A stretch of DNA of 64,000 nt from a candidate division WOR-3 bacterium UBA2202 (GTDB lineage: Bacteria > Hydrothermota > 32-111): the NCBI GenBank assembly GCA_002327905.1, contig DCUY01000104.1, positions 7,904-71,903 on the forward strand. Reading direction: 5' to 3'. The translations under genes and the position numbers were made by a program. Below are positions 51,043 through 64,000 of the stretch, piece after piece. Under the pieces are notes generated by a model. The model did no database searches. It had not been told where the DNA came from and worked only from the letters and a program-made list of their open reading frames with translations. The first letter of the stretch is position 1; the number at the start of each line of letters is the position of its first letter.

Positions 51043-52108
51043 CAGAAAGATTCTCCTGATTGTCAGCCTGCTCGTGCTCTTTGGTATATTCACTCTGTTC
51101 AATGCCTCGTCATTCATATCATCACAGCTTGAAAGGTGCGGTCATAATCCTTTTTACTATGTAATCAAGCAGGTCGAGGCGATATTCATCGGAGGTATAG
51201 CGATGCTTGTTTTAAACAAGATTGACCTTGAAAAATTGAAAAAAATGGCTCTTCCCGGCCTCATTTTCTCCATAATGCTTTTAGCGATTGTTCTGATTGT
51301 CGGTAAGGAGATAAACGGAGCAAAAAGGTGGCTTGATTTGGGAATAACAAATTTTCAGCCCTCTGAGATGGCGGAGTTTTTTATACTTCTTTATCTTTCC
51401 GCTTTCATCTCCTCCTCCAAAATCGGCAAAAAGACTCATGAAAAGATAATAGCAGTTCTTGTTCTCTGTCTCACAGCTATTGTTCTTGTGGCTGTGGAGC
51501 CTAATCTGTCAACCGCCCTTCTCATGTACCTCTTTGTGATAGTTCTTCTTCTCCTCTCGGATATTCCCAGAGGATATATCTTTTCCATGTGCGTTTTCCT
51601 TGTGGTCGGCTTTTTGGCGATGATTCCAAGATACGCGCATGCGGTAACTCGCCTTAAAATGCTTGCAGGTTCAGTGCACTCGGAGCAGGCTGAAAATTCA
51701 ATTTTGGCGATAGCGAACGGAGGATTCTTCGGACAGGGGATCGGTATGGGAAAATTCAAATTATTTTTTATTCCTGAAGTCCACTCGGATTTCATATTCA
51801 CAACAATCGCTGAAGAATTCGGATTCATAGGCTGCATAATACTTATAGGCGCGTTTCTCTTGTTTCTGAAGACAGGAATTGATGTGGCAAAGAATTCGTA
51901 CAGCACATTTTCAAAAGTTCTTGCATTCGGAATCACATTCATCATATTCACAAAGGCAATCACTCATATAGCAATATCCCTCAAAATTGCTCCCACGACA
52001 GGACTGGTGCTTCCATTCATATCATACGGCGGTAGCGCAATGATATTTAATCTGGCGATGATCGGAATACTCATGAATATCGCAAGGGACGGCTATAATG
52101 CAAAATAA
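51032..52108 (+). CDS. ftsW: SEDS-family peptidoglycan glycosyltransferase FtsW
   Basis: Polytopic; FIPEVHSDFIFTTIAEEFGFIG and PFISYGGSAMI SEDS motifs; 358 aa. Confidence 0.85.
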   Translation: MSNDRKILLIVSLLVLFGIFTLFNASSFISSQLERCGHNPFYYVIKQVEAIFIGGIAMLVLNKIDLEKLKKMALPGLIFSIMLLAIVLIVGKEINGAKRWLDLGITNFQPSEMAEFFILLYLSAFISSSKIGKKTHEKIIAVLVLCLTAIVLVAVEPNLSTALLMYLFVIVLLLLSDIPRGYIFSMCVFLVVGFLAMIPRYAHAVTRLKMLAGSVHSEQAENSILAIANGGFFGQGIGMGKFKLFFIPEVHSDFIFTTIAEEFGFIGCIILIGAFLLFLKTGIDVAKNSYSTFSKVLAFGITFIIFTKAITHIAISLKIAPTTGLVLPFISYGGSAMIFNLAMIGILMNIARDGYNAK

Positions 52109-53108
52109 ACGCAATCTTATAATCTCCGCTGGAGGAACAGGAGGGCACATAATTCCCGCCCTTACAATCGGACTCTCTCTACAAAATGTAAATCCGATAT
52201 TCATCTGCGGAAGAAGAGATATTGAAAAAACAGTATATGAAAATTTCAATGTCAAACCCATTCTTTTGAATCTCAATTCCTTCTCTTTTGTCTCATTCAT
52301 TTTTAGTCTGCCTAAAAACATAATGACTGCTGTAAAAATATTAATAGATAAAAATCCGCAATCAGTCATTATTGCAGGCAACTATACTTCAGTGCCTGTG
52401 GGAATAGCCTCTGTAATGCTTCATAAGAGACTGTTTGCAGTAGAACAGGACGCTCTTATAGGCAAGGCGAATAAAGTCTTTGCAAGAGCCGCATGCAGAA
52501 TATTCACTGCGTATGAGCCTCCGTTCAGATACATTGACAATAAAAAGGCGGTGTATGTCGGACATGTGATACGAGATGAAGTGAGAAATCCGAGAAAGAG
52601 TGAGAATGACATTACAATTGAAACTGACAGAAAAAAAATACTTATAATGGGAGGAAGTCAGGGCGCTCTAACAATGACAAAAAAGATTATTGAAATTCTT
52701 TCAAAGAAGGGAGAGTATCATCTTATAGTGATTGCGGGAAAAAACCTCGAAAAATTTGAATGTGCGCCCAACACGACATTATTGGGATTCTACAAAAATA
52801 TGGGATACCTCTATTCTATTGCGGACTTGATTATAGCCCGTTCAGGCGCATTAAGCGTTGCTGAAATAGCATCCACCAATAAGCCCGCAGTATTCATTCC
52901 ACTGTCAACTGCTTCAAACAATGAGCAGAGAAAAAATGTCGAAGCATTGATGAAGAATAATTCTCAATTTGAAATACTTGATGAATACAAAATAGATGAA
53001 GAGTCCCTTCTAAGAAAAATAAAGAGAGTCGAAGTTCTAAGAGGCGCAAATAAGAGCGCGGAAACGGTTTTCAAAAAACAGATATCAATCATAGAAAATT
53101 ATGTTTAA
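52098..53108 (+). CDS. murG: UDP-GlcNAc:lipid I N-acetylglucosaminyltransferase MurG
   Basis: ISAGGTGGHIIPAL N-terminus; GT28 fold; 336 aa. Confidence 0.85.
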   Translation: MQNKRNLIISAGGTGGHIIPALTIGLSLQNVNPIFICGRRDIEKTVYENFNVKPILLNLNSFSFVSFIFSLPKNIMTAVKILIDKNPQSVIIAGNYTSVPVGIASVMLHKRLFAVEQDALIGKANKVFARAACRIFTAYEPPFRYIDNKKAVYVGHVIRDEVRNPRKSENDITIETDRKKILIMGGSQGALTMTKKIIEILSKKGEYHLIVIAGKNLEKFECAPNTTLLGFYKNMGYLYSIADLIIARSGALSVAEIASTNKPAVFIPLSTASNNEQRKNVEALMKNNSQFEILDEYKIDEESLLRKIKRVEVLRGANKSAETVFKKQISIIENYV

Positions 53109-54486
53109 AAATATTTATCACATTCATTTTGTCGGGATAGGCGGAATAGGAATGAGCGGCATATCGGAAGTCCTAAAATCAATGGGATACAGCATATCCG
53201 GTTCGGACATAAGAGAGTCGCAGATAACAGACCATCTAAAGAGCATAGGCATAAAGATAGTTATAGGCCATTCACCGTCTAATGTGGGAGATGCCGATGT
53301 TGTTGTCTATTCTTCCGCAGTAAAGAGCGACAATGTGGAGCTTATTCAGGCTAAAAAGGAAAAAATTCCGGTTATACCGAGAGCTGAAATGCTCGCTGAG
53401 CTTATGAGAATGAAATTCTCCATAGGTGTTGCGGGAACACACGGCAAGACAACCACTACTTCGCTTATAGCAAAAATCTTCCACAACGCCAAACTTGATC
53501 CGACAATAATAATCGGAGGACAGGTAAAGGTCTTTGAAGGAGCAAATGCCCGCCTCGGAGCAGGAGAATACCTGATTGCAGAAGCTGACGAAAGCGATAA
53601 ATCGTTTCTAAAACTCTTCACTTCAATGGCTGTGATAACAAATATCGATGAAGACCATCTTGACAATTATAAAGATCTTGAAGAGATAAAAGAGCATTTC
53701 ATAAAATTTGCAAATTCAGTTCCGTTTTACGGTTCAGTGATAATATGTATTGATGATGAAAACAACAGAAATGTACTTGACAGAATAAACTCCAAAGTCA
53801 TATCATACGGATTCGGAAGAAGAGGCGATGTAAGGGCAATTGATTTAAAGATGAAGGTTCTCGGCTCCAAATACCAGCTTGTTTCAAGAAACATGCCTTT
53901 GGGGGAAATAACCCTGAATATTCCGGGAAAGCATAATGTGCTCAATTCACTCGCCGCAGCTGCTGTTGCTATTGAGATGGAGATTCCATTCAAGACCATA
54001 AAAGAGGCATTGTCGCAATTCAGCGGAGTGAAAAGAAGATTCGAAATAATTTTTCAAGACGAAAGGAAAAACATCTTTGTCGTGGATGACTATGCTCACC
54101 ATCCTGCGGAGATATTTACTGTAATCAATTCTGCAAGAAACATGGGAGACTATAAAGTTGTGACTGTCTTTCAGCCGCATTTATATTCACGCACTCTATC
54201 TCTTAAAGACAGATTCTCCGAAGTTTTGTCCAAATCGGATATTTCCGTTGTAACAGATATATACCCTGCAAGAGAGACGCCCGTTGAAGGAGTCACAGGA
54301 GAGATTTTATACAATGAAATAAAAAAGACTCTCAAAGATAATGCGCATTATGTTCCTGATAAGAATGACCTGCCCGGATTTCTCAAAAAATTCGCTGATG
54401 ACAATACAATCTTCCTTTTTATCGGAGCGGGAGACATAAACAAATATTCACTGAGTTTTGCAGAGGCTATGAATGAAAAAATATGA
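53101..54486 (+). CDS. murC: UDP-N-acetylmuramate--L-alanine ligase MurC
   Basis: HFVGIGGIGMSGISEVL; VAGTHGKTTTTSLI; 461 aa. Confidence 0.9.
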   Translation: MFKNIYHIHFVGIGGIGMSGISEVLKSMGYSISGSDIRESQITDHLKSIGIKIVIGHSPSNVGDADVVVYSSAVKSDNVELIQAKKEKIPVIPRAEMLAELMRMKFSIGVAGTHGKTTTTSLIAKIFHNAKLDPTIIIGGQVKVFEGANARLGAGEYLIAEADESDKSFLKLFTSMAVITNIDEDHLDNYKDLEEIKEHFIKFANSVPFYGSVIICIDDENNRNVLDRINSKVISYGFGRRGDVRAIDLKMKVLGSKYQLVSRNMPLGEITLNIPGKHNVLNSLAAAAVAIEMEIPFKTIKEALSQFSGVKRRFEIIFQDERKNIFVVDDYAHHPAEIFTVINSARNMGDYKVVTVFQPHLYSRTLSLKDRFSEVLSKSDISVVTDIYPARETPVEGVTGEILYNEIKKTLKDNAHYVPDKNDLPGFLKKFADDNTIFLFIGAGDINKYSLSFAEAMNEKI

Positions 54487-55303
54487 AATGTATGACCTGA
54501 AAAAGGCATCGTATATAAAAATAGGATGCAAGGCAAAAAACTTTATTGAAGTTTACAATGAAGATGACCTTAAAGAGGCAGTAAGCATGAATAATCCGAA
54601 AATCCTCGGAGGAATGTCAAATGTTCTCTTCGCAGGAGATTCTTATGAAAATACATTCATTTCACTGCAGGGCGAATTTAAGGAGATTGAGAGAATCAGC
54701 GACACTGATGTCAGGGCGGGAGCAGGAGTAATGCTCTCCTCTCTTCTCTCGTTTCTCGCGGAAAACGGACTCTCCGGACTTGAGGAATTGAGCGGCATTC
54801 CGGGCTCTTTAGGCGGAATGCTTTTTATGAATGCCGGCGCAAACGGAGTCTCAATTTCAGACCTGCTTGTAAGCTTTGACACTCTTGAGAATAAGAATTT
54901 GAAAAAGGATGAATGCGTTTTTTCATACAGGCATTCTTCAATAAAGGAGCCTGTTGAATTCGTCACTCTCCGCCTTAAAAAAGATTCCAAGGAGAATATA
55001 AAGAATAAAATGTCCGATATTATAAATAAAAGAAAGATGACTCAGCCTTATGACACTCTCTCTTTGGGATGCGTCTTTAAGAATCCTGCTTTTGAAATTC
55101 CGGCTTGGAAGCTGATAGATTCTGTGGGAATGCGTTCAAAATGCGTAAATGATGTCTGTGTCTCTGAAAAACATTCCAATTTTATAATAAACAAAGGAGA
55201 CGGGAAAGCGTCGGATTTTCTCTCCCTGTCAGAAGAGATTGTGAAACTCGTGTGGGAGAATTATAATGTGAAACTGGAGTATGAAATTGAGATACTATTC
55301 TAA
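54473..55303 (+). CDS. murB: UDP-N-acetylenolpyruvoylglucosamine reductase MurB
   Basis: FAD-binding PCMH-type domain (ILGGMSNVLF) and C-terminal MurB domain; 276 aa. Confidence 0.8.
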   Translation: MKKYEMYDLKKASYIKIGCKAKNFIEVYNEDDLKEAVSMNNPKILGGMSNVLFAGDSYENTFISLQGEFKEIERISDTDVRAGAGVMLSSLLSFLAENGLSGLEELSGIPGSLGGMLFMNAGANGVSISDLLVSFDTLENKNLKKDECVFSYRHSSIKEPVEFVTLRLKKDSKENIKNKMSDIINKRKMTQPYDTLSLGCVFKNPAFEIPAWKLIDSVGMRSKCVNDVCVSEKHSNFIINKGDGKASDFLSLSEEIVKLVWENYNVKLEYEIEILF

Positions 55304-55361
55304 CAAAGGCGACCGTTTGTACAGACATTACACTCTTCAGAAGAAGAAAAAAAAGAATTTC

Positions 55362-56018
55362 ATGAACAAGCTTCCTCAGGCAACCCTCAGAATAATGCTT
55401 TTGATTTTAATAGTGTCTTTGTCCGCATTTGCCGTTAATTATTTTTTGAAGACGGGCAGTATGTTCGCAGTCAAAACAATCAAAATCGTAGTAGCTAATG
55501 AGAAATCCTCTGTTGAACAAAACTCTCTTGATGCATTTAAGGGAGTCAATCTTAATACTCTCAAAAAAAGCGACATAGCGGAGTTCTATAACAATAAAAA
55601 CAGCGAATATGGAGTGAGAAGCATACAGAAGATTCTGCCTTCCGCATTGAAAGTGGTCTTATACAGAAGATTTCCCATTTTCCTCGTCAATAATGAATGG
55701 GTGGTCAATAATGACCTGTCGATATTTCCTTACACTGAAAAATGCGTCAATTATATACCTCTCACTGTAAATGAAAGCGAATTGAAATCCATATTCGACA
55801 TACCGGGGCTTCCGACAATTCACAAGCAGATAATAAAAGAGAGGGATTTAATCAGATCAATGGCATTCGAAGGTTCGAATATATATTTGAGGATGAAGAA
55901 CGGAAAGCTGATAGTGATATCTGCCGGACAGTCTCTCCCCTCTCTCAAGGATGCTTCGGCATCTGATTTCAAAGTTTTGGATTTCAGATTTAATAATGCA
56001 ATATATGTAAAAAAATAA
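55362..56018 (+). CDS. ftsQ: FtsQ/DivIB-like division protein (POTRA)
   Basis: Single N-terminal TM LRIMLLILIVSLSAF, periplasmic POTRA-like region; position between murB and ftsA. Start chosen at MNKLPQ. Confidence 0.55.
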   Translation: MNKLPQATLRIMLLILIVSLSAFAVNYFLKTGSMFAVKTIKIVVANEKSSVEQNSLDAFKGVNLNTLKKSDIAEFYNNKNSEYGVRSIQKILPSALKVVLYRRFPIFLVNNEWVVNNDLSIFPYTEKCVNYIPLTVNESELKSIFDIPGLPTIHKQIIKERDLIRSMAFEGSNIYLRMKNGKLIVISAGQSLPSLKDASASDFKVLDFRFNNAIYVKK

Positions 56019-56032
56019 AAAAGTGAGGTTTT

Positions 56033-57259
56033 ATGGACATTACGGTTCTGGACATAGGAACATCGAGCGTTAAGACTCTGATGGCTTCCTTGGATGAAAA
56101 TGGAAGCATAAATGTCAATGGCTTCGCAAACACGAAAAACAGCGGAATGGCGAAGAGCAGGATTGTCGATATAGACCTGACAATAATAGCAATCAAAGAA
56201 TCCATACAATCCGCGGAAATAATGGCAGGCAGAAAGGCGGACAATCTCTTTGTTTCAATCGGCGGAAGCGACACCATAGGCATTTCAAGCAAAGGCATAA
56301 TCGCCACAAAGCATTCGGGGGGAGCCATCACTCCTGAGGATGTTGTGCGCGTCATAGCACAGGCTAAGGTTGTTCTCACAATCGACAGCAATATACTGCA
56401 TGTCATACCGAAAGAATACACTGTTGATGATCAGACCAACATCAAGAATCCTGTGGGGCTTTTGGGCTCAAAACTCTCTGCAGAGACAATGGTGATTGCA
56501 GTGCAGAATATTCTGATTCAGAATATAAACAATGCGGTGGAGAGAAGCGGTTTCAAGGTGAATGAACTTATTTCACAGCATGTGGCGGCATTTCATTCCA
56601 CTCTTGACAGAGAAGAGATGGACCTCGGAGTAGCTCTCATAGATATAGGCGGAGGCTCCACAAAGATTTCAATTTTCAATGAGGATGCCATAAGATACAT
56701 TGACACGATTGATGTTGCCGGAGACCATATTACAAAGGATATTTCCATAGGACTCCGCCTTACAAAGAATGATTCGGAATCAATAAAGCTGAAGCATGGA
56801 GCATGCCTTAAAGACCTTGTTTCAAACGAGGAGACATTCTCCGCTCCCGGGCTTAATGAGAGAGAGAGCAGAACAATATCCACATCAGACCTCTTTGAAA
56901 TAATCGCTCCGAGAGTCGATGAGATAATCGAACTCGTGTCAAAATCAATAGAGAAGAGCAACATGTTTGACAAGCTCAATGCAGGCATTGTTCTGACAGG
57001 TGGAACTGCGAATCTGAGAGGAATAAAGGAGAGATTTGAAAGAAAGACAAATCTTCCTGTCAAGATAGGAACCCCTCAGCGCTTATCCGGAATTACGGAC
57101 AATCTCAACAACCCTTCATTTGCAGTGAGTGTGGGAATGCTTCTCTATGCTACTGAAATGTTCAGACAGACAGGCGGTTCTTTATCTAAGAAGAATCTCT
57201 CATTTGACGGTTCAATCAACAGATTCATGAACTTTTTCAAAGATATGTTTAAATTATAA
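56033..57259 (+). CDS. ftsA: Cell division protein FtsA
   Basis: Actin-fold ATPase: VLDIGTSSVKTL, ALIDIGGGSTKISIF, LTGGTANLRGI. Confidence 0.9.
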   Translation: MDITVLDIGTSSVKTLMASLDENGSINVNGFANTKNSGMAKSRIVDIDLTIIAIKESIQSAEIMAGRKADNLFVSIGGSDTIGISSKGIIATKHSGGAITPEDVVRVIAQAKVVLTIDSNILHVIPKEYTVDDQTNIKNPVGLLGSKLSAETMVIAVQNILIQNINNAVERSGFKVNELISQHVAAFHSTLDREEMDLGVALIDIGGGSTKISIFNEDAIRYIDTIDVAGDHITKDISIGLRLTKNDSESIKLKHGACLKDLVSNEETFSAPGLNERESRTISTSDLFEIIAPRVDEIIELVSKSIEKSNMFDKLNAGIVLTGGTANLRGIKERFERKTNLPVKIGTPQRLSGITDNLNNPSFAVSVGMLLYATEMFRQTGGSLSKKNLSFDGSINRFMNFFKDMFKL

Positions 57260-57280
57260 AATATAACAAGGGGGAGAAAA

Positions 57281-58399
57281 ATGTTTAGTCCAATTCAAGA
57301 ATCAGTCCAGCCGGCGAAGATAAAAGTCGTCGGAGTGGGAGGAGCCGGAGGAAATGCAATCAACAGGATGATTTCCTACGGATTCACGGGTGTCGACTTC
57401 ATAAGCATCAATACTGACCAGCAGATATTGAGCGTGTCAAAGGCGCCTGTGAAAATTCAGATAGGCAAGAATATTTCGCGCGGACTCGGAGGAGGCGGAA
57501 ACCCTGAGGTGGGCAAAAAATCCGCAGAGGAGTCAAAGGACGAAATCAGAGAGGCTATTGATGGAGCAGACATGCTTTTCATCACAGCTGGAATGGGCGG
57601 AGCAACCGGAACAGGAGCATCGCCAATAATAGCTGAAATAGCAAAGGAGCTCGGGATACTCACTATCGCAATAGTGACAAAGCCATTTGCATTTGAAGGA
57701 AAGAAGAGGATAAACAGCGCTCTCAACGGAATATCCTCTCTTAAAGAGACTGTTGACACTATGCTTGTGATTCCGAATGAGAAGCTGAAAAATATCTCCG
57801 ACAGGTCAACACCTCTCAACTCTCTTTTTGAAGCGGCTGACACTGTTTTGTATCAGGCGGCAAAGGGCATTTCGGACATTATCATAAGGCCCGGATTTGT
57901 GAACAGGGATTTCGCTGATGTCAAAGCGGTTATGACTTACAGAGGAGATGCGGTTATCGGAGTGGGAACGGCAAAAGGAGACGACAGAGGCGCAAGCGCC
58001 GCTCAGATAGCGCTTGATTGCCCGATACTCGAAGACTCTTCAATTGAAGGCGCATCTGCAATGCTCGTGACTCTCACCGGACCTTCAAATATGTCATACG
58101 GAGATATTGAGGATGCAATGGAGATAATAAGAAAGAGAGCAGGAGAGAATACTGACATAAACTGGGGCGCAGTATTTGATGATACTCTTGAAAATGAAAT
58201 AAGAATTACAATAGTAGCCACAGGAATATCGAGGAATGTGCAGACAGAGAAGCCCAAAGCCGAAGCGCTGGAGCTCTTCAGCACTTCCAAAATAGAGGAT
58301 AAAGCGTCTGATAATTCGACTGCAATGAATGTGAGACGGACAGTTACAAAGGATGATGACATAGAAAAGCCTGCTTTTTTACGCAGAGCAAGCGACTGA
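57281..58399 (+). CDS. ftsZ: Cell division GTPase FtsZ
   Basis: GVGGAGGNAINRM, tubulin signature GGGTGTGASP, C-terminal conserved peptide DIEKPAFLRR. Confidence 0.95.
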   Translation: MFSPIQESVQPAKIKVVGVGGAGGNAINRMISYGFTGVDFISINTDQQILSVSKAPVKIQIGKNISRGLGGGGNPEVGKKSAEESKDEIREAIDGADMLFITAGMGGATGTGASPIIAEIAKELGILTIAIVTKPFAFEGKKRINSALNGISSLKETVDTMLVIPNEKLKNISDRSTPLNSLFEAADTVLYQAAKGISDIIIRPGFVNRDFADVKAVMTYRGDAVIGVGTAKGDDRGASAAQIALDCPILEDSSIEGASAMLVTLTGPSNMSYGDIEDAMEIIRKRAGENTDINWGAVFDDTLENEIRITIVATGISRNVQTEKPKAEALELFSTSKIEDKASDNSTAMNVRRTVTKDDDIEKPAFLRRASD

Positions 58400-58417
58400 T
58401 TTTTTTCATACTCCCCC

Positions 58418-58460
58418 AAGAGGGAGGGATCTATATGACCCTCCCTCTTACCCTTTTTAA
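58418..58460 (+). terminator. Rho-independent terminator after ftsZ (end of dcw cluster)
   Basis: AAGAGGGAGGG-atctatatga-CCCTCCCTCTT, an 11-bp perfect stem followed by ACCCTTTTT. Confidence 0.6.
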
Positions 58461-58749
58461 ACATTGATGTTTTATTCTTCCTTGTGATTATCGTATGATA
58501 TGGTGTAATGCAAAGCACTCTGGCTCTCAGTGGCGTCTTCGCCGAAGCAATCTCCTTACTTCTATTCACTCTTTTGTTTTTTTGTGTCTCCCCGCCTCTG
58601 AACTCTCAACCATTAACTATAAACTATTAACTCTTTGATTTTGTTTTGCCCACGGCACATGGCTCACGGTATCTTTGTCACTTTTTTCCACCCCCGCCGC
58701 TATATATACTCCGAACTCCGAATGGATTTTTTTGCATTTTACCATTTCT

Positions 58750-59667
58750 TCACTTTTTCAGTCTTTTATAGCCGTCTTCAAGAATAATCATGAAGTTTTC
58801 CTTCTTATCATTTATGAACGGATAATCCTCAACGAAATTCATTATCTTATCCCTGCTGTCAAGCACTTCCTTTATAATGTTCAAACAAATTGATTCGTCC
58901 ATTTTCATGGCATTTGCCAATCTTAAAAAATCATCGGCTTTCAGTTTGTTTTTTTTACCGTTTACGGTCAAAGCGCTGTCCTCTTCATTTTTAATGACAA
59001 GTTTTGAAGAAACGATATCATAGCACGGAGAAAGAACTTTCTCATTGTCATCATCATATAAGAATCCGTAATTCTTAAGATGTCCATCCCCGTTTCCCAC
59101 TATAAAATTCATAACAACAATCTTAAAAAAGTTTTGAATTTCTAAGCCCGGAAACTTTGCGTATGCTCTTATCGCTTCTCCGACCCTTTCCGCGCTTCCT
59201 GTATATTTGTCATCCGCCTGAATCACGGACTGCATATCTTCAAAATGAATCTTTTTATTTCCTTTTCTGTCAAATCGCCTCACAATATATGCGCTTGAAC
59301 CGTCACGAAGAGTTACGATTCCGTGAAGAGCGGTCTTAACTCCGGCTATTTCAAATATTGTCATGCACATATTTTCATTTTGAGGCATTTCGGGGAATCT
59401 GTCCGTCTGCGGTTTAAGAATGAATTGACCTCCCGCATAAACAACTTCAACCTCTCCATTTTTTCTGTTTATTTTTGTCGAGAGTTTCGGCTGAACACCC
59501 GATATTGAAAGTTTTCCGACACACTCTTGCGCCTTCTCGGAAATTTCATTGAGAGAAAATCTTACGGAAGGAATTTTTGAAACTGAAAAGACCCGTCTCA
59601 CGCATTTTTCATGCATGAGATCCTCACCCTTCAAAGGAAGGCCGCATGATATGCAGTATCTGTTCAC
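58750..59667 (-). CDS. HipA-family serine/threonine kinase core (HipT-like toxin of a HipBST-type module)
   Basis: ISGVQPKLS (E. coli HipT has ISGYQPKLQ) and VGNGDGHLKNYG (catalytic-loop xGNxDxHLxN); 305 aa; lacks the HipA N-subdomain; N-terminal C-x2-C...H-x2-C. Confidence 0.7.
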   Translation of the reverse strand: MNRYCISCGLPLKGEDLMHEKCVRRVFSVSKIPSVRFSLNEISEKAQECVGKLSISGVQPKLSTKINRKNGEVEVVYAGGQFILKPQTDRFPEMPQNENMCMTIFEIAGVKTALHGIVTLRDGSSAYIVRRFDRKGNKKIHFEDMQSVIQADDKYTGSAERVGEAIRAYAKFPGLEIQNFFKIVVMNFIVGNGDGHLKNYGFLYDDDNEKVLSPCYDIVSSKLVIKNEEDSALTVNGKKNKLKADDFLRLANAMKMDESICLNIIKEVLDSRDKIMNFVEDYPFINDKKENFMIILEDGYKRLKK

Positions 59668-59984
59668 TCCATCTCCTTAATCGAAACTGCGCCTATCGCA
59701 TCTTCGCAGGTCTTTATCAAAAAACCGAAATCATCGTCTTTGTCGAGTTTCAATTTCAATCCTGTGATGTCTCTGTACCAGCCCTCAGGAAGAATGGATT
59801 TAAAAAAAACAAAGAGCTTCTTTGACTCGTATGTTTTTTCCGTCAATGGGAAATTAACCGATATCGGAATTCCCGATTTAAGATATTCATCAAAATAAAC
59901 AAATCTGTAGCCGTCTTCAATCTCCTCTATTATTCCCGCATCCATCTCTTTGAAAAAAACAATACCCTTCCTATTCTTTTTCAT
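59664..59984 (-). CDS. HipA N-terminal-subdomain protein (HipS-like)
   Basis: 106 aa; ...FFKSILPEGWYRDI...IGAVSIKEME aligns with the HipA N-subdomain-1 pattern (FFdNLLPEG...GAV). Overlaps the kinase gene by 4 nt. Confidence 0.6.
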   Translation of the reverse strand: MKKNRKGIVFFKEMDAGIIEEIEDGYRFVYFDEYLKSGIPISVNFPLTEKTYESKKLFVFFKSILPEGWYRDITGLKLKLDKDDDFGFLIKTCEDAIGAVSIKEME

Positions 59985-60171
59985 CTTTTACTGCCTCAAG
60001 ATGGTAGCCGAAAAGAGAGAGCACTCTGTTTACTTTGTCCATACGCATAGTTTTTTTGCCCTGTTCAACTTCCCTAACAAACCTCAGTCCGACACCGGAC
60101 TTCTTGGCAAGCTCTGTCTGAGTCAAGTTTGCCTGCTTTCTTAAAGTTTTGAATCTGTTTTTTATTTCCAT
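59971..60171 (-). CDS. XRE-family HTH protein (HipB-like)
   Basis: 66 aa; LRKQANLTQTELAKKSGVGLRFVREVEQGK helix-turn-helix; overlaps the HipS-like gene. Confidence 0.65.
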   Translation of the reverse strand: MEIKNRFKTLRKQANLTQTELAKKSGVGLRFVREVEQGKKTMRMDKVNRVLSLFGYHLEAVKDEKE

Positions 60172-60177
60172 AGTGAT

Positions 60178-60326
60178 ATTTTATACCCTAAACAGCATAA
60201 TGTCAAGCTCTTTCTTTTAAAGAATCAAATTATTATACCATTAAGGGTATTATTCAGAAGTCATTATACCTTTTTAGGTATTATTTATAGCTCTTGAAAT
60301 TCCATTTATACCCTTTTGAGCATAAT
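60178..60326. promoter_or_regulatory. hipBST promoter with four repeated operator-like palindromes
   Basis: Minus strand: TTGACA (60206..60201) - 17 nt - TAAAAT (60183..60178). Four copies of TTATACC(C)-N6-8-(G)GTATTAT / GCATAAT at 60181, 60233, 60264 and 60306, two of them perfect ATACC-N6-GGTAT palindromes. Copy 1 sits between the -35 and -10. Confidence 0.5.
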
Positions 60327-60968
60327 AATAGCAAGTTTAATGCGAATAGGATGGTGCATGTTTGAATGAATGTCAATAGTGAATAAAACTTCCCGCAGAA
60401 GTCAAGACAAAAAAATATCTGTTACTTTTTTCTCGAAGAATACAAAATGTCAAGCATCCGTCATATCTGTATTAAGGTCACAAAATGTGACCTTAAAGCT
60501 TTATTCTGAAATCAATAGGATAAATTGAAAACCTATTCCTGATAAAGAATCCAAAAATACAAGCTACGGTTCCATTTGTTTAAATATATTACTTTTTCAT
60601 CATTTTGATTATATTCATAGGAGGCAATATAATCGGTTGTAAACCTGTTCTACTGCTAATATTGCTGACAAATTCTCTAATATATGGGAATATAATAGCA
60701 GGTGCATTGTTTTTACTAAAATCCTCCAAATCCAAATTGGGATTTGCCGAATCGGTGCTGAATAAACCAATCATTGTAACCATTAGTTTAATCGGAGATT
60801 TTTCATCATCCCTTCCAAACTCAACCTGAATTTCTGTCTGAAGTTTATCTTTTTTCTCATTTAAATTATTTTTTACATTGAAATCAAATTCCTTTTAAAT
60901 TCTACTTAAAAATGATTTCAACTCCATACTTTTGTTTAGCTTCAAAAGCCTCACCTGGTGATATTTGG

Positions 60969-61038
60969 GACTCCTTGTGTTATTTATTTTTCTGAATTAC
61001 AATAATTCAGTTTTAATTCAAGGAGTCCTTTTTTATGC
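60969..61038 (+). terminator. Nested hairpin followed by T6 (plus-strand intrinsic-terminator-like element) in a gene-poor region
   Basis: GGACTCCTTG ... CAAGGAGTCC, a 10-bp perfect stem enclosing an inner CTGAATT-acaat-AATTCAG hairpin, followed by TTTTTTAT. Confidence 0.35.
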
Positions 61039-61161
61039 TCAATGAGTTTTATTCTCATTTTTTTATATCCATGAAATTCCCCTCTATTGCTATATTATAA
61101 CTTCTTCTATCCTAATCTTTTATAAAGAATCGCTCAACTTAGGGTATAGTTATTATCACCT

Positions 61162-62667
61162 TCATTTTTCTTTTGATTTTTTGTGTCTTTCGTCCCATAA
61201 AGGTTTGGTTAATTTACGAATTTTTTCACCAAATTCTGCCATCTTTTCAAAGTATTCAGGGTCATGAAGTGCAATTTTTGCATTTTCATTTTCAGGTTTT
61301 ATGTCGTCACTTAAAATTTTTTCTCTAAAACATTTGTAATTATCTCTAATGGAACAAGGTGCAAAGAAATTACCTGAAGGGTCTTTAAGATAACCATACT
61401 CTTCCTGCCAGGATCTACCTCTTGTAAAAAAGTCACTCATTAATGCATCGACTATTGTTTTGTCATTTTGATAAAGTTCTATGATGTTGTCTTTGTAATA
61501 CGGAATGAATACGCAAGGCATAATGTTGCCATTCCAGTCAATATGGAAATAACCTCCTTCTCGCGCATAAGCCATGCAACCACGACTTCCAGCACCTGCA
61601 TTCCAGAAATCTCCTACAAAATATCCTTTATCAAACATTATGTGTTCCCATTCTTTTAGTAGATTAACTCTTTCTTCAGGAGAAAGAACTAAATCCATTG
61701 TATCTTTTGCTCTTCCTATTGGCATTAAATGAAACATCCACATATAAGTTGCTCCAACCTCATCAAACCAGTATTCATAAAATTTATCTTCCAAGAGAGA
61801 ATTTATATTCTTTTTAGTAGCGGTTACTGAAATTCCAAATGGAATTCCAATTTTTTTCAAATGTTCTATGTTTTCTAAAATCTGTTTGAATACTCCTTTT
61901 CCCCGTCTGTCATCTGTTTCTTTTTCAAATCCTTCTACAGATATTGCAGGTGTTATGTTTCCTGTTTCTGCCATTCTTTCTAATCTATCTCCATATAATA
62001 GTAATCCATTTGTAAAAACAAGGAAAAACATATTCTGAAAAGTTTCTGCTATGGATATTATATCCTTTCCTGCTTCATTCCAGACGAAAGGTTCTCCACC
62101 AGAAACAACAACAAATGTTGAATCACATATATCCCGCATCTCTCTTATAGCCTTTTCTACTACCCAATAGGGCAAAGAAGCCATTGTCTGAGCCTGGCTT
62201 TCCGCATAACAACCAATACATCTCAGGTTGCATTTTTGTGTTGGTGAGATGGTGAAAAATCCAGGGGGCGCAACATTGTACTTTTCTATATATTTCTTTT
62301 TTACAGCAGATTTTTCTGAAGTGTCACTTTCTAACATATTTTTCATAAATATTTCCCATGATTTTTCCACGTATTTTTTTGAAATAAATCCTCTATCACA
62401 ATTTTTCATTAGCTGATTCACAATATTGATAACAAATTGTCCTACCACTCTTGCAATATATTCCGACTCAAAATATGTCGACTTAATTTTCTCAAACATC
62501 TTGTGTTTTATCCTGGCAACTGCCAGATTTCTTAAACATTTTTTAAGTGGAATTTTTGATGTAGATAATTTTATCAAGTTAAACACCACAGAGCTTTTTA
62601 CTCCAGCCATAAACTTTCTTGCATTTTTACGACTTGCATTTTTAGGATTAAACATCTGTGTTATCAT
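61162..62667 (-). CDS. Radical SAM enzyme with SPASM/twitch-type C-terminal domain and a 130-aa N-terminal extension
   Basis: FFTISPTQKCNLRCIGCYAES (CX3CX2C); C-terminal Cys-bearing region GSRGCMAYAREGGYFHIDWNGNIMPCVF; 501 aa. Confidence 0.75.
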   Translation of the reverse strand: MITQMFNPKNASRKNARKFMAGVKSSVVFNLIKLSTSKIPLKKCLRNLAVARIKHKMFEKIKSTYFESEYIARVVGQFVINIVNQLMKNCDRGFISKKYVEKSWEIFMKNMLESDTSEKSAVKKKYIEKYNVAPPGFFTISPTQKCNLRCIGCYAESQAQTMASLPYWVVEKAIREMRDICDSTFVVVSGGEPFVWNEAGKDIISIAETFQNMFFLVFTNGLLLYGDRLERMAETGNITPAISVEGFEKETDDRRGKGVFKQILENIEHLKKIGIPFGISVTATKKNINSLLEDKFYEYWFDEVGATYMWMFHLMPIGRAKDTMDLVLSPEERVNLLKEWEHIMFDKGYFVGDFWNAGAGSRGCMAYAREGGYFHIDWNGNIMPCVFIPYYKDNIIELYQNDKTIVDALMSDFFTRGRSWQEEYGYLKDPSGNFFAPCSIRDNYKCFREKILSDDIKPENENAKIALHDPEYFEKMAEFGEKIRKLTKPLWDERHKKSKEK

Positions 62668-62693: not shown

Positions 62694-63600
62694 TTAATAA
62701 TTTACTGCTTTATTAATAAATCTATCAAAATTTCCTATAAAACTCGATCTTGTTAAAAGAATTATTGTGGCAATAAAGTAATTGAACCAACACCTGAAAC
62801 TATCATAGTAATAGCAACCGGAATACCAAATCGCCGCAGGGGAACCAAATTGGATAATGTGAGCACTAAAAAATCCCATTGTCACAGTTATTACATTAAT
62901 AAAAATTGCCTTGCAGGTTGTTTCTAATGTTTTATCCAGCGCCTCAAGTTCAGTTCCGGCTTTCTTAAATTCTTTCCGAAACCTGCTGAAAAAATGGATT
63001 GAATAATCTATCCCAATACCAATAGGGACGCTTCTTACAAGAACAGTGGCAACGTCCAGTGGAATGCTTGAGAACCCCATAAAACCAAAGATGATTAAAA
63101 GTGCGAAACCTATTGGCACAAGACCTATCAACCCACCAATAAAAGAACGCATCATGAACATAAGACAGATAAATACCAGAACAACGGCAATAATAATACT
63201 CTGGATTTGGCTGAGCATAATACTATTATCTAAATTCTGATAGATAGATGGCATCAATGTTTGAGCAAAAATGACATTAGAATTATTTACTTCTTTGATA
63301 TATTCCTCAATATTCTCAAGCAATTTCCATGTTCGTGCCGTATTCATATTCGTAATAGTTGCCTGAATGATGGCTTCTGTTTTTGCTGGATTAACCAATT
63401 GGCTCATAATTTCTTCCTCTTCTAAAAGAAACCAGAGATTGCTGACCTTATCTTTACTATCCGGTATTGTTTTCCCTTCGTCCATTACATCACTCATTTC
63501 TTCTATTATATCTACTACTGATTGGGGATTATGAACATCTTTTTTTGATTCTAAGAAATCTTTCATCTTTTTCATCTCTTCCAGAACCACAGGGTCCTGA
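62694..63600 (-). pseudogene. MMPL/RND-superfamily exporter (COG1033, HpnN-like), C-terminal half only; interrupted by IS630 and possibly frameshifted near its 3' end
   Basis: Second sterol-sensing-like TM bundle MFMMRSFIGGLIGLVPIGFALLIIFGFMGFSSIPLDVATVLVRSVPIGIGIDYSIHFFSRFRKE. The N-terminal half is absent and the 5' end runs into the IS630 transposase gene. An alternative frame near 62770..62810 gives a more MMPL-like C-terminus (GIPVAITMIVSGVGSITLLPQ*). Confidence 0.5.
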
Positions 63601-64000
63601 ATATCGACTTTAACTATCGTGGTGTCTCTAACAATTCTTGACATTTGAAATTTTATTAAGAATGCTTTCGGCTGAGGCTGTCCAGACAAAAACTTTGGGA
63701 TTTTGATTGTGATTATCTATATATTGATTGATAACATTAACAAGCTCTTTAATATTTTCAAATGATCCTCTGCGTATTATTTTGCAGGTTATTTCAGAGA
63801 ACCATCGTTCTGCATGATTCAGCCATGAACTTGATGTTGGAGTTAAGTGCAGATGAAAACGAGGATGACGCTCCAGCCATTTTATTACACTCTTATGTTT
63901 ATGGGTTGCGTAATTATCTACAATAAGATGCAGGTCAAGTTCAGGTGGAGTCTTGACATTGATTATCTGCAAAAACCTTATGAACTCCTGATGCCTGAAC
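63570..64000 (-). mobile_element. IS630-family insertion sequence (3' part; extends beyond the window)
   Basis: Transposase C-terminal region, 63628..64000 and open to the edge: ...FRHQEFIRFLQIINVKTPPELDLHLIVDNYATHKHKSVIKWLERHPRFHLHLTPTSSSWLNHAERWFSEITCKIIRRGSFENIKELVNVINQYIDNHNQNPKVFVWTASAESILNKISNVKNC. This is the classic DDE motif region of IS630/Tc1-like transposases. Confidence 0.8.

What the first reader, a model, noticed from the sequence alone, without database searches (positions are those of the whole stretch)
58750..60330. Tripartite HipB-HipS-HipT-like toxin-antitoxin module with a four-operator promoter
On the minus strand, three overlapping genes appear in this order.
- A 66-aa XRE HTH protein (HipB-like).
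- A 106-aa protein matching the N-terminal subdomain of HipA (FFKSILPEGW...IGAVSI), which is HipS-like.
- A 305-aa HipA-kinase core lacking that subdomain (ISGVQPKLS; VGNGDGHLKNYG), which is HipT-like.

This is exactly the split architecture of the E. coli O127 HipBST system, in which HipS rather than HipB is the antitoxin.

Upstream, the promoter TTGACA-17-TAAAAT is interleaved with four copies of a TTATACC-N6-8-GGTATTAT palindrome (60181, 60233, 60264, 60306). This mirrors the four TATCC-N8-GGATA HipB operators of E. coli hipBA.

The kinase also carries an N-terminal C-x2-C...H-x2-C that I do not recall from E. coli HipT.
Basis: partly seen in the sequence, partly recalled or inferred. Interest (0 to 1): 0.65.

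Follow-up and report, generated by a model that had tools for sequence, protein, structure and literature searches.

The report
HipBST kinase toxin-antitoxin operon
This is an intact three-gene HipB-HipS-HipT kinase toxin-antitoxin cassette of an already known family, in an uncultured WOR-3 bacterium. Its only fresh points are a conserved, probably zinc-binding, Cys2-His-Cys knuckle on the toxin and a repressor-site pattern shared across many phyla.

Summary
Three overlapping minus-strand genes encode a 66-aa HTH protein, a 106-aa HipA N-subdomain-1 homologue and a 305-aa HipA core kinase.

The closest solved structures are Legionella pneumophila HipB, HipS and HipT, followed by those of E. 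coli O127. All kinase motifs are intact: the S54-I-S56 Gly-rich loop, R131xD133R134, catalytic D194 and Mg-binding D217. HipS also keeps the inhibitory Trp (W69).

The promoter TTGACA-17-TAAAAT is real. It is flanked by four 18-bp sites of the type TATACC-N6-GGTATA. Two are good palindromes; the two outer ones carry a degenerate TATGCT arm.

The same site is about 216-fold enriched upstream of hipB in 70 related loci from many phyla, with spacings of 31, 41-42 and 52 bp (about 3, 4 and 5 helical turns). It is therefore very probably the HipB operator.

The N-terminal C-x2-C-G-x9-11-H-x2-C motif is conserved in an all-or-none way. It is missing from both HipTs whose structures are solved, and no HipBST paper I could read mentions it.

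Verdict: a new member of the known HipBST family (Legionella-type subclade). Interest is modest.

The parts
59971..60171 (-). hipB: a 66-aa Cro/XRE-type HTH repressor. The recognition helix is GVGLRFVREVEQGK.
   Evidence: ORF. HTH_3 at 2.6e-9. TIGR03070 couple_hipB at 74.4 bits, above the 71.65 cut-off. Best PDB match is HipB(Lp) 8ezt at 5e-7. The recognition helix is nearly invariant across 70 loci.
59664..59984 (-). hipS: a 106-aa homologue of HipA N-subdomain 1 and the predicted antitoxin. W69 (codon 59778-59780) sits in the invariant PEGWY motif.
   Evidence: Couple_hipA at 1.8e-22. PDB matches are HipS(Lp) at 2e-17, HI_0666 at 1e-16 and HipS(Ec) at 7e-9. The model has pLDDT 88.8 and TM 0.86 to 7vkb_B. 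W69 is invariant in 17 homologues and aligns with Trp65 of HipS(Ec) (role described in PMC10627512).
58750..59667 (-). hipT: a 305-aa HipA-type Ser/Thr kinase core and the predicted toxin. It has a GTG start with an AAGGAG Shine-Dalgarno sequence 5 nt upstream.
   Evidence: HipA_C at 4.6e-46. PDB matches are HipT(Lp) at 3e-50 and HipT(Ec) at 8e-22. The model has pLDDT 94.3, pTM 0.92 and TM 0.91 to 7wcf.
59524..59667 (-). [quoted passage not shown] It is a putative Cys2-His-Cys zinc knuckle.
   Evidence: The four positions are invariant in 40 aligned N-termini. All 70 motif-bearing homologues tested show C-x2-C-x9-11-H-x2-C, and 66 of them have G after the second Cys. The distribution is all-or-none: CCHC in 103 sequences, none of the four in about 70, partial in 3. 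pLDDT is 94-97 here, with C5 and C8 on a beta-knuckle and H19 and C22 at the start of helix 20-27. HipT(Lp) reads C-T-S-G at these positions.
59485..59517 (-). Gly-rich (P-) loop G51-K-L-S54-I-S56-G-V-Q-P-K61, with the 'SIS' pair of autophosphorylation serines.
   Evidence: G51, S54, G57 and K61 are invariant. The loop aligns with the S57-I-S59 loop of HipT(Ec) and with S54 of HipT(Lp) (PMC10627512; PMC9325769). It is the only low-confidence stretch of the model (residues 52-57), as expected for a mobile loop.
59071..59097 (-). Catalytic motif G191-N-G-D194-G-H196-L-K-N199. D194 is encoded at 59086-59088.
   Evidence: G191, N192, G193, D194, H196 and N199 are invariant. The motif aligns to GNEDMHLKN of HipT(Lp) and GNNDMHLRN of HipT(Ec).
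59017..59019 (-). Codon for D217, the Mg2+-binding Asp (motif SPCYDIVS).
   Evidence: D217 is invariant. It aligns to the Asp of SPAYDLL in HipT(Lp) and of APVYDFVS in HipT(Ec), where it is D233.
60178..60206 (-). Sigma-70-type promoter: -35 TTGACA (60201-60206), a 17-nt spacer, then -10 TAAAAT (60178-60183). Only 6 nt separate the -10 from the hipB ATG, so the hipB mRNA is probably leaderless.
   Evidence: The promoter scan gives 11 of 12 matches, the best in the region. The same layout occurs in L081 (6 nt between -10 and ATG) and L082 (8 nt). The leaderless start is an inference.
60182..60199 (-). Operator 1 (proximal), TATGCTGTTTAGGGTATA. It fills the promoter spacer and overlaps the -10.
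   Evidence: A site occupies the same position, -28 from the ATG, in L081 and L082.
60234..60251 (-). Operator 2, AATACCCTTAATGGTATA, a good palindrome.
   Evidence: It lies at -80 from the ATG. L081 has a weaker site (3 mismatches) at the same -80 position.
60265..60282 (-). Operator 3, AATACCTAAAAAGGTATA, a good palindrome.
   Evidence: It lies at -111 from the ATG, the same position as in L081.
60307..60324 (-). Operator 4 (distal), TATGCTCAAAAGGGTATA, with a degenerate left arm.
   Evidence: (repeat family D2, 82% identical to operator 1). It lies at -153 from the ATG. L081 has a weaker site (3 mismatches) at the same -153 position.

Best explanation
This is a complete, apparently functional type II tripartite HipBST toxin-antitoxin cassette of the Legionella-type subclade. 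It lies in the chromosome of a candidate-division WOR-3 bacterium, just downstream of ftsZ and convergent with it.

**Proposed mechanism** (each step marked as shown here or inferred)

1. **Transcription.** The three translationally coupled genes are transcribed from TTGACA-17-TAAAAT. The sequence is shown; the hipB mRNA is probably leaderless, which is inferred.
2. **Autorepression.** HipB dimers bind four 18-bp TATACC-N6-GGTATA-type operators.
   - Their centres are 52, 31 and 42 bp apart, about 5, 3 and 4 helical turns, so all lie on one face of the DNA.
   - The proximal operator covers the promoter spacer and the -10, so occupancy should shut off the operon.
   - The sites and their cross-phylum conservation are shown; binding is inferred by analogy with EMSA data for Legionella HipB and reporter data for E. 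coli HipB.
3. **Neutralisation.** HipS docks on HipT where N-subdomain 1 sits in HipA. It would hold the Gly-rich loop in the ejected state that cannot bind ATP, using W69. The folds and residues are shown; the complex is inferred.
4. **Toxicity.** When HipS is lost, HipT autophosphorylates on S54 and/or S56 and phosphorylates an essential target, arresting growth.
   - The target is probably a translation factor such as an aminoacyl-tRNA synthetase.
   - This is inferred. The target is TrpRS for HipT(Ec) and unknown for HipT(Lp).
5. **Mini-domain.** The N-terminal mini-domain very probably holds one Zn2+ through C5, C8, H19 and C22, most likely as a structural site. This is inferred from conservation and predicted secondary structure.
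For: **Domains and closest structures.** Pfam and NCBIfam assign all three proteins to the expected families. For all three, the best PDB sequence matches are the HipB, HipS and HipT chains of Legionella.

**Models.**
- HipT: pLDDT 94.3, TM 0.91 to 7wcf.
- HipS: pLDDT 88.8, TM 0.86 to 7vkb_B.

**Functional residues.**
- Catalytic and regulatory residues of HipT are invariant.
- The PEGWY motif of HipS is invariant.

**Gene organisation.**
- The genes overlap by 14 and 4 nt, exactly as in the 74%-identical relative L081. A 4-bp overlap is also reported for lpg2368-70 (PMC9325769).
- The hipB-hipS-hipT order holds in about 75 of 80 loci; most exceptions are cut by contig ends.

**Operators.**
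- There are 136 sites in 22.4 kb upstream of hipB, against 11 in 392 kb elsewhere in the same loci.
- 56 of 70 loci have at least one site, and 9 have four.
- Spacings cluster at 31 and 41-42 bp, with fewer at 52, 72 and 83 bp.
- L081 and L082 keep four sites, with the proximal one at -28 from the ATG.

**HipB.** The recognition helix is nearly invariant, matching the conserved half-site.

**Mobility.** The flanking genes differ between the window, L081 and L082, as expected of a mobile TA cassette.

**Zinc site.**
Against: - There are no functional data for this locus or for any close relative.
- The closest characterised homologue is only 37% identical (Foldseek alignment), and its own target is unknown (PMC10653801).
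- Two of the four operators are asymmetric.
- The operator right arm GGTATAAT contains a -10-like TATAAT. Some of the repetition could therefore reflect promoter-like sequence in AT-rich DNA, although conservation in GC-richer phyla argues against this.
- Zinc binding rests on sequence pattern and predicted secondary structure only.
- About 40% of homologues do without the knuckle, so it cannot be essential for kinase activity.
- A leaderless start is inferred from spacing alone.
Confidence: 0.85

Rival explanations
1. The same three genes work mainly as an abortive-infection anti-phage system rather than as a persistence or addiction module. Phage infection would release HipT from HipS, and the kinase would then shut down translation. 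This concerns physiological role and is compatible with the molecular mechanism above.
For: - HipA-family kinases have recently been validated in phage defence (PMC13092281).
- HipT and HipS give weak hits to the candidate defence pair PDC-M03A (2.2e-10) and PDC-M03B (3.2e-7) in PADLOC.
- The cassette sits in different genomic contexts in relatives. In L082 it lies between two AAA_14/DUF4143 ATPase genes, one of which also gives a weak nSTAND NTPase hit.
Against: - The PADLOC hits are weak and partial, and PDC-M03B models are 232-255 positions long against 106 aa for HipS.
- In the window the neighbours are housekeeping genes (ftsA, ftsZ, a radical SAM enzyme), not a defence island.
- No phage data exist for any HipBST.
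Confidence: 0.2
2. The locus works like a canonical HipBA system. HipB would be the true antitoxin that neutralises the kinase, and the 106-aa protein would be only a detached structural lid needed for activity.
For: - HipS is homologous to N-subdomain 1, which is part of the active toxin in HipA.
- HipB binds HipT directly in Legionella (PMC10653801).
Against: - In both characterised HipBST systems HipS, not HipB, neutralises HipT (PMC6581861 as cited; PMC9325769).
- This HipB is only 66 aa and contains no tryptophan at all, so it has no C-terminal extension to insert into the kinase.
- HipS keeps the Trp that is essential for antitoxin function in E. coli.
Confidence: 0.07
3. The cassette is a decaying or domesticated remnant. 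The kinase would no longer be toxic, or would have been recruited to ordinary signalling, and the repeats would be relics.
For: - Chromosomal TA loci often decay.
- The SecB-like gene upstream, on the same strand, carries an in-frame stop codon, so some local gene decay has occurred.
Against: - All three ORFs are full length and translationally coupled.
- Every conserved catalytic, Gly-loop and HipS-interface residue is intact.
- The promoter matches 11 of 12 consensus positions.
- The four operators sit at the same positions as in a 74%-identical relative.
- The same HipT protein is encoded on 9 contigs read from several public assemblies.
Confidence: 0.06

Closest known systems
HipBST of Legionella pneumophila (lpg2368-lpg2369-lpg2370; PDB 7vkb, 7wcf, 8ezr, 8ezt)
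   Same: - It is the best PDB sequence match for all three proteins: HipT 3e-50, HipS 2e-17, HipB 5e-7.
- The folds agree: TM 0.91 for HipT and 0.86 for HipS.
- Both have a short HipB of about 70 aa, 4-nt gene overlaps, and several 18-bp operators of 6-N6-6 geometry, the proximal one overlapping the promoter (PMC10653801).
   Different: - The operator half-site is TATACC rather than TTACTG.
- There are four sites at 31, 42 and 52 bp centre spacing, rather than three sites separated by 53-bp gaps.
- HipS has the PEGW tryptophan, whereas Legionella has PEGI and does not use it (section heading).
- The Gly-rich loop is S-I-S rather than S-V-Q.
- The HipT N-terminus has the full C2HC set, whereas Legionella has C-T-S-G.
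HipBST of enteropathogenic E. coli O127:H6 (PDB 7ab3-7ab5)
   Same: - It has the same tripartite split of HipA.
- The Gly-rich loop carries the same S-I-S motif with two phosphoserines.
- HipS carries the same Trp (Trp65 in E. coli, W69 here).
- HipT has an N-terminal mini-domain ahead of the Gly-rich loop.
   Different: - Identity is only about 24% for HipT, with TM 0.84.
- E. coli HipB is longer, with an N-terminal extension of about 35 residues.
- The E. coli mini-domain has Ser and Gly where H19 and C22 lie here.
- The Legionella-type operator motif is reported absent from the E. coli hipBST promoter.
- The E. coli target is TrpRS; the target here is unknown.
[quoted passage not shown]
   Same: - It has the same kinase fold and catalytic motifs.
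   Different: - HipA is a single chain of about 440 aa that includes N-subdomain 1; here that subdomain is the separate protein HipS.
- In HipBA, HipB is the antitoxin.
- HipA has no N-terminal mini-domain (PMC10627512).
- The operator arms are 5 bp with an N8 spacer.
Single-chain HipA-like kinases carrying the same C2HC module (P0150, 427 aa; P0256, 450 aa; uncharacterised metagenomic proteins)
   Same: They carry the same C-x2-C...H-x2-C mini-domain directly before the Gly-rich loop and the HipA_C core.
   Different: N-subdomain 1 (Couple_hipA) is fused upstream, so in these proteins the zinc module is an internal linker rather than an N-terminus. Their partner genes were not examined.

Membership tests
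HipBST tripartite toxin-antitoxin system | A three-gene operon in the order hipB-hipS-hipT, closely packed or overlapping | tested here: met
   The genes overlap by 14 nt and 4 nt on one strand. The same order holds in about 75 of 80 related loci.
HipBST tripartite toxin-antitoxin system | HipT is a HipA core kinase that lacks N-subdomain 1 | tested here: met
   Pfam finds only HipA_C, over residues 53-270. The model has TM 0.91 to HipT(Lp) and 0.84 to HipT(Ec).
HipBST tripartite toxin-antitoxin system | The four Hip kinase motifs are intact: Gly-rich loop with Ser, activation-loop region, catalytic Asp motif and Mg-binding Asp | tested here: met
   G51, S54, G57, K61, R131, D133, R134, D194, H196, N199 and D217 are invariant in 55 sequences and align to the functional residues of HipT(Lp) and HipT(Ec).
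HipBST tripartite toxin-antitoxin system | HipS is a stand-alone homologue of HipA N-subdomain 1 | tested here: met
   Couple_hipA at 1.8e-22. TM 0.86 to HipS(Lp), 0.84 to HipS(Ec) and 0.79 to HipA 3tpt.
HipBST tripartite toxin-antitoxin system | HipB is a small HTH protein of the HipB / Y4mF type | tested here: met
   TIGR03070 at 74.4 bits, above the 71.65 cut-off. Best PDB match is HipB(Lp).
HipBST tripartite toxin-antitoxin system | HipT is toxic through its kinase activity and is neutralised by HipS rather than HipB | not testable with these tools
   This needs expression and rescue assays. The only indirect support is conservation of the catalytic residues and of HipS W69.
HipBST tripartite toxin-antitoxin system | HipB autorepresses the operon through operators in the promoter | tested here: inconclusive
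   Four sites overlap or flank the promoter, and the motif is about 216-fold enriched upstream of hipB across 70 loci. Binding itself was not tested.
HipBST, E. coli O127 subclade | Close sequence relationship to HipT(Ec), and TrpRS as the target | tested here: not met
   HipT(Ec) scores 8e-22 against 3e-50 for HipT(Lp). Identity is about 24% versus 37%. The target cannot be tested here.
Canonical bicistronic HipBA | A single-chain HipA of about 440 aa with N-subdomain 1 fused to the kinase core | tested here: not met
   N-subdomain 1 is a separate ORF ending in TGA that overlaps the GTG start of the kinase in another reading frame.
Zinc-knuckle / treble-clef-like metal site in the HipT mini-domain | Four ligands, with a C-x2-C knuckle followed by H/C-x2-C at the start of a helix, co-conserved | tested here: met
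   C5, C8, H19 and C22 are invariant in 40 sequences. The pattern is all-or-none. DSSP shows a beta-bridge at residues 4 and 11 and a helix at 20-27, with pLDDT above 94. No Pfam family reaches its threshold on this stretch.
Zinc-knuckle / treble-clef-like metal site in the HipT mini-domain | Tetrahedral ligand geometry and bound metal | not testable with these tools
   Model coordinates are not exposed, and no metal-aware prediction tool was available.

The most novel reading that the evidence does not exclude
[quoted passage not shown] It could be a regulatory switch that senses zinc availability, oxidation or electrophiles. Loss of metal would reposition the Gly-rich loop, or weaken HipS or HipB binding, and so trigger the toxin. 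That would supply the long-sought natural activation signal for a Hip kinase. Its presence in many HipT proteins and in some single-chain HipA-like kinases, and its clean loss in others, would then mark two different regulatory classes.
Probability: 0.1. Interest if true: 0.6.

Novelty: new member of a known kind. Interest (0 to 1): 0.33.

Why it matters
As a gene-finding result it is ordinary. HipBST is a described family, and the Legionella-type subclade is already known to be widespread outside the Gammaproteobacteria (PMC10653801).

Two by-products may help people who work on Hip kinases.

[quoted passage not shown] Both crystallised HipTs have lost it. This gives a concrete, testable handle on that domain.
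2. **The operator.** A single operator type, TATACC-N6-GGTATA, phased at about 3 and 4 helical turns, is shared by HipBST cassettes across very distant phyla, together with an almost invariant HipB recognition helix. This extends the only published HipBST operator description, which covers Legionella alone.

Tried and rejected
- **Ligand distances.** I looked for model coordinates to measure Cys/His distances, but none are exposed in /data. The zinc site therefore rests on pattern and secondary structure.
- **Pfam on the isolated mini-domain.** Only sub-threshold zinc-ribbon hits appeared (E 0.13 and 0.013), so there is no curated family for it.
- **N-terminal profile search against 1.84 billion representatives.**
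  - The two top hits (P0121, P0124) are repeat-rich proteins whose only Pfam hits are spurious, and were discarded as artefacts.
  - Most other hits are truncated HipT fragments from short contigs.
- **Rfam scan of 58300-61300.** Nothing came near a gathering score. No tRNA lies nearby.
- **Composition.** The profile shows no island-like GC break at the cassette.
- **PADLOC.** Only weak hits to the candidate system PDC-M03 appeared, not enough to file this locus as a defence system.
- **Legionella operator.** I considered that it might be the same motif. The oligonucleotide table shows O1 = TTACTGCTATAACAGTAA, which has the same geometry but a different sequence.
- **Own species.** The genome-contig scan did not return the window's own species among its best 80 loci. 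The closest database protein (99% identical) is annotated as coming from a candidate division WOR-3 bacterium.
- **Literature.** Searches for zinc or cysteine in connection with HipT or HipA found nothing relevant.


Full report

Yes. The ORF list gives three minus-strand ORFs:
- hipB-like, 59971-60171 (66 aa);
- hipS-like, 59664-59984 (106 aa);
- hipT-like, 58750-59667 (305 aa, GTG start).

hipB and hipS overlap by 14 nt. hipS and hipT overlap by the 4-nt GTGA, and an AAGGAG lies 5 nt before the GTG.

Domain assignments:
- Pfam gives HTH_3 (2.6e-9), Couple_hipA (1.8e-22) and HipA_C (4.6e-46) respectively.
- NCBIfam places the HTH protein in TIGR03070 couple_hipB, above its curated cut-off (74.4 versus 71.65 bits), and the 106-aa protein in TIGR03071.

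The promoter scan finds TTGACA-17-TAAAAT at 60206..60178, with 11 of 12 matches. It is the best promoter-like site in the region.

**2. The repeats**

Written as 18-bp units on the minus strand, the sites are:
- TATGCTCAAAAGGGTATA (60324-60307);
- AATACCTAAAAAGGTATA (60282-60265);
- AATACCCTTAATGGTATA (60251-60234);
- TATGCTGTTTAGGGTATA (60199-60182).

The strict palindrome TTATACC-N4-8-GGTAT matches only the two inner sites, with 0.01 expected by chance. The two outer sites are 82% identical to each other (family D2) and carry a degenerate left arm.

TATRCY-N6-GGTATA with at most 1 mismatch hits these four sites and nothing else in the 64 kb window. Chance expectation is 0.40, and none of 100 shuffles reaches the observed count.

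Centre-to-centre spacings are 42, 31 and 52 bp, about 4, 3 and 5 helical turns. The proximal site occupies the promoter spacer and overlaps the -10.

So the description 'four copies of a palindrome interleaved with the promoter' is right. The corrections are that the spacer is a fixed N6 and that two sites are asymmetric.

**3. What the proteins are**

By sequence against the PDB:
- HipT's best matches are HipT(Lp) of Legionella pneumophila (8ezr, 7vkb, 7wcf; about 3e-50), then HipT of E. coli O127 (7ab3-5; about 8e-22), then the HipA proteins.
- HipS matches HipS(Lp) (2e-17), H. influenzae HI_0666 (1e-16) and HipS(Ec) (7e-9).
- HipB matches HipB(Lp) (5e-7).

By predicted structure:
- An AlphaFold2 model of HipT built on 55 homologues has pLDDT 94.3 and pTM 0.92. 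It superposes on HipT(Lp) with TM 0.91 and on HipT(Ec) with TM 0.84.
- The HipS model has pLDDT 88.8. It superposes on HipS(Lp) with TM 0.86 and rmsd 1.7 A, on HipS(Ec) with TM 0.84, and on N-subdomain 1 of E. coli HipA with TM 0.79.

Functional residues in the 55-sequence alignment are invariant:
- the Gly-rich loop (G51, S54, G57, K61);
- K85;
- the RxDR motif (R131, D133, R134);
- the catalytic motif (G191-N-G-D194, H196, N199);
- D217.

These align with D197 of HipT(Lp) and with D210 and D233 of HipT(Ec). The loop reads S54-I-S56, the 'SIS' type with two phosphorylatable serines described for E. coli HipT (PMC10627512).

HipS carries W69 in an invariant PEGWY motif. This aligns with Trp65 of HipS(Ec), the residue that inserts into HipT and is essential for antitoxin function. 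Legionella HipS has Ile at this position.

The system therefore belongs to the Legionella-type subclade, but it shares the Trp and the SIS loop with the E. coli system. The toxicity and rescue criterion cannot be tested here.

**4. Relatives and gene order**

- The protein search returned 1082 homologues at E <= 1e-10. The nearest (99% identical) is annotated as coming from a candidate division WOR-3 bacterium.
- A scan of one genome per species retrieved 80 loci. They come from Omnitrophota, Elusimicrobiota, Planctomycetota, Desulfobacterota, Clostridia, Bacteroidota, Campylobacterota and others.
- In about 75 of them hipB, hipS and hipT lie in the same order on one strand. Most exceptions are cut by contig ends, and one (L074) is a fused HipA.
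- Flanking genes differ between relatives. In the window they are ftsA and ftsZ on one side and a SecB-like remnant and a radical SAM gene on the other. In L081 they are DUF2207 and pyruvate:ferredoxin oxidoreductase genes. In L082 they are AAA_14/DUF4143 ATPase genes.
- This fits a horizontally mobile cassette. The composition profile shows no break at the locus.

**5. The operator is conserved across phyla**

I searched the 320 nt around each hipB start in 70 loci for TATACC-N6-GGTATA with at most 2 mismatches.
- There were 136 sites in 22.4 kb, or 6.1 per kb.
- The rest of the same loci gave 11 sites in 392 kb, or 0.028 per kb. That is a roughly 216-fold enrichment.
- 56 loci have at least one site, 44 have two or more, and 9 have four.
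- Adjacent-site spacings cluster at 31 bp (22 cases) and 41-42 bp (30 cases), with fewer at 52, 72 and 83 bp. The last two are about 31+41 and 41+42, which would arise if a weak middle site were skipped.

The closer relatives show the same layout.
- In L081 (74% identical HipT) sites lie at -153, -111, -80 and -28 from the ATG, exactly as in the window. Those at -153 and -80 are weaker, with 3 mismatches.
- In L082 (52% identical) four sites of a variant type, TATATC-N6-GATATA, lie at -142, -100, -69 and -28.
- In all three the proximal site sits between a TTGAC(A/T) -35 and the -10. The ATG follows the -10 by only 6-8 nt, which suggests a leaderless hipB mRNA. This last point is an inference.

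The HipB recognition helix GVGLRF(I/V/L)RE(L/V)EQGK is nearly invariant across the loci. The L082 protein, with the variant half-site, reads GVSLRF. That is a single anecdotal co-variation.

[quoted passage not shown] They have 6-bp arms and 53-bp gaps, and the proximal one overlaps the promoter. The paper's oligonucleotide table gives O1 = TTACTGCTATAACAGTAA, which has the same 6-N6-6 geometry but a different half-site. The window's arrangement is thus a sequence variant of a known regulatory design. It resembles the four operators of E. coli hipBA in number, but not in arm and spacer geometry.

**6. The N-terminal Cys/His motif**

- Among the top 120 homologues, 76 carry C-x2-C...H-x2-C in the first 45 residues. 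The remainder are about 18 residues shorter.
- In 70 motif-bearing sequences the pattern is always C-x2-C-x9-11-H-x2-C, and 66 have Gly after the second Cys.
- In an alignment of 40 N-termini the only invariant residues besides Met1 are C5, C8, H19 and C22.
- Over 175 aligned sequences the pattern is all-or-none. CCHC occurs 103 times, about 70 sequences have none of the four (the knuckle is deleted and His and Cys are replaced by Asp/Asn and Leu/Phe), and only 3 are partial. Part of this set was selected with the motif profile, so the proportions are biased, but the all-or-none pattern is not.
- In the model this region has pLDDT 94-97. C5 and C8 lie on a short beta-knuckle (bridge between residues 4 and 11), and H19 and C22 lie at the start of helix 20-27. 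That is the classical zinc-knuckle-plus-helix (treble-clef-like) arrangement, by established knowledge of zinc-finger folds.

A profile-to-PDB alignment shows that HipT(Lp) is colinear here, MKHCPITYEKISDQENYSQRGLHLL, but has C, T, S and G at the four positions. HipT(Ec) likewise has Ser and Gly where His and Cys lie here.

[quoted passage not shown] Neither it nor the three other HipBST or Hip phylogeny papers I read mentions zinc or cysteines in this context. Further full-text searches found nothing either.

A profile of the mini-domain searched against 1.84 billion representative proteins gave 251 hits at E <= 0.001. Of the ten longer hits I checked, two were repeat-protein artefacts and seven carry a HipA_C kinase domain, among them:
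- two single-chain kinases, P0150 and P0256, with Couple_hipA, then C2HC, then HipA_C;
- one kinase, P0255, with a C-terminal extension of about 300 aa.

The module is therefore a feature of a wider HipA clade and is not peculiar to this locus. No Pfam model covers it. I could not measure ligand geometry because model coordinates are not exposed. I put the probability of zinc binding at about 0.75. Its function, structural or regulatory, is open.

**7. Mechanism, rivals and verdict**

The best-supported reading (confidence 0.85) is a functional HipBST module.
- HipB represses a probably leaderless operon through four phased operators.
- Free HipT autophosphorylates and phosphorylates an essential, probably translational, target.
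- The target is not predictable. [quoted passage not shown]

Rivals:
- A phage-defence role is compatible with the same molecular mechanism. Support is weak: PADLOC hits to PDC-M03 and recent HipA-family defence systems.
- HipB as the antitoxin is unlikely, because this HipB is short and lacks any C-terminal insertion.
- A decayed remnant is unlikely, because every motif is intact.

The locus is a new member of a known kind. The C2HC mini-domain and the cross-phylum operator are modest new observations about the family, not about this locus alone. Interest: 0.33.

Noticed in passing
window 60589-60927 (minus strand): A SecB-like ORF lies 417 nt upstream of hipB on the same strand. Pfam gives SecB at 9.4e-9, covering profile positions 48-133 of 141. 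The ORF is interrupted by an in-frame TAA at 60895-60897 (reading MELKSFLSRI*KEFDFNV...). The same stop occurs in an independent metagenome assembly (L084, 100% identical over 2664 nt). SecB-like chaperones accompany some toxin-antitoxin (TAC) systems, but no SecB gene lies next to hipBST in L081 or L082, so the adjacency is probably coincidental.
   Followed up: partly
window 60472-60496: A perfect 11-bp inverted repeat, TTAAGGTCACA-AAA-TGTGACCTTAA, lies between the SecB-like remnant and the hipBST promoter region. It resembles a terminator, but the T-run is on the plus strand only. Three further TTGAC(A/T) hexamers lie at about 60370-60455. Their function is unknown.
   Followed up: no
window 60171-60183; L081 and L082 upstream regions: The -10 hexamer ends only 6 nt before the hipB ATG (6 nt in L081, 8 nt in L082), and there is no Shine-Dalgarno sequence. 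This suggests a leaderless hipB mRNA, conserved in this lineage.
   Followed up: partly
L082 1850-1995 (and the identical L083): A 52%-identical HipBST relative has four operators of a variant type, TATATC-N6-GATATA, at -142, -100, -69 and -28. Its HipB recognition helix starts GVSLRF instead of the otherwise near-invariant GVGLRF. This may be a specificity co-variation.
   Followed up: partly
proteins P0150 (427 aa), P0256 (450 aa), P0255 (623 aa), P0179 (366 aa): The C2HC mini-domain also occurs inside single-chain HipA-like kinases, between Couple_hipA and HipA_C (P0150, P0256). It also occurs in a kinase with an uncharacterised C-terminal extension of about 300 aa (P0255). P0179 combines the mini-domain and a partial HipA_C with a Peptidase_M48 domain, which may be a gene-calling fusion.
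   Followed up: partly
window 49702-58399 (plus strand): A run of co-directional genes ends in ftsA (56033-57259) and ftsZ (57281-58399). It looks like the end of a cell-division (dcw-type) cluster, although only these two genes were checked. The hipBST cassette is inserted convergently just downstream of ftsZ.
   Followed up: no
window 61162-62667 and 62694-63689 (minus strand): Upstream of the SecB-like remnant, on the minus strand, lie a 501-aa radical SAM protein (Radical_SAM at 7e-21) and an MMPL / SecDF-like membrane protein.
   Followed up: no
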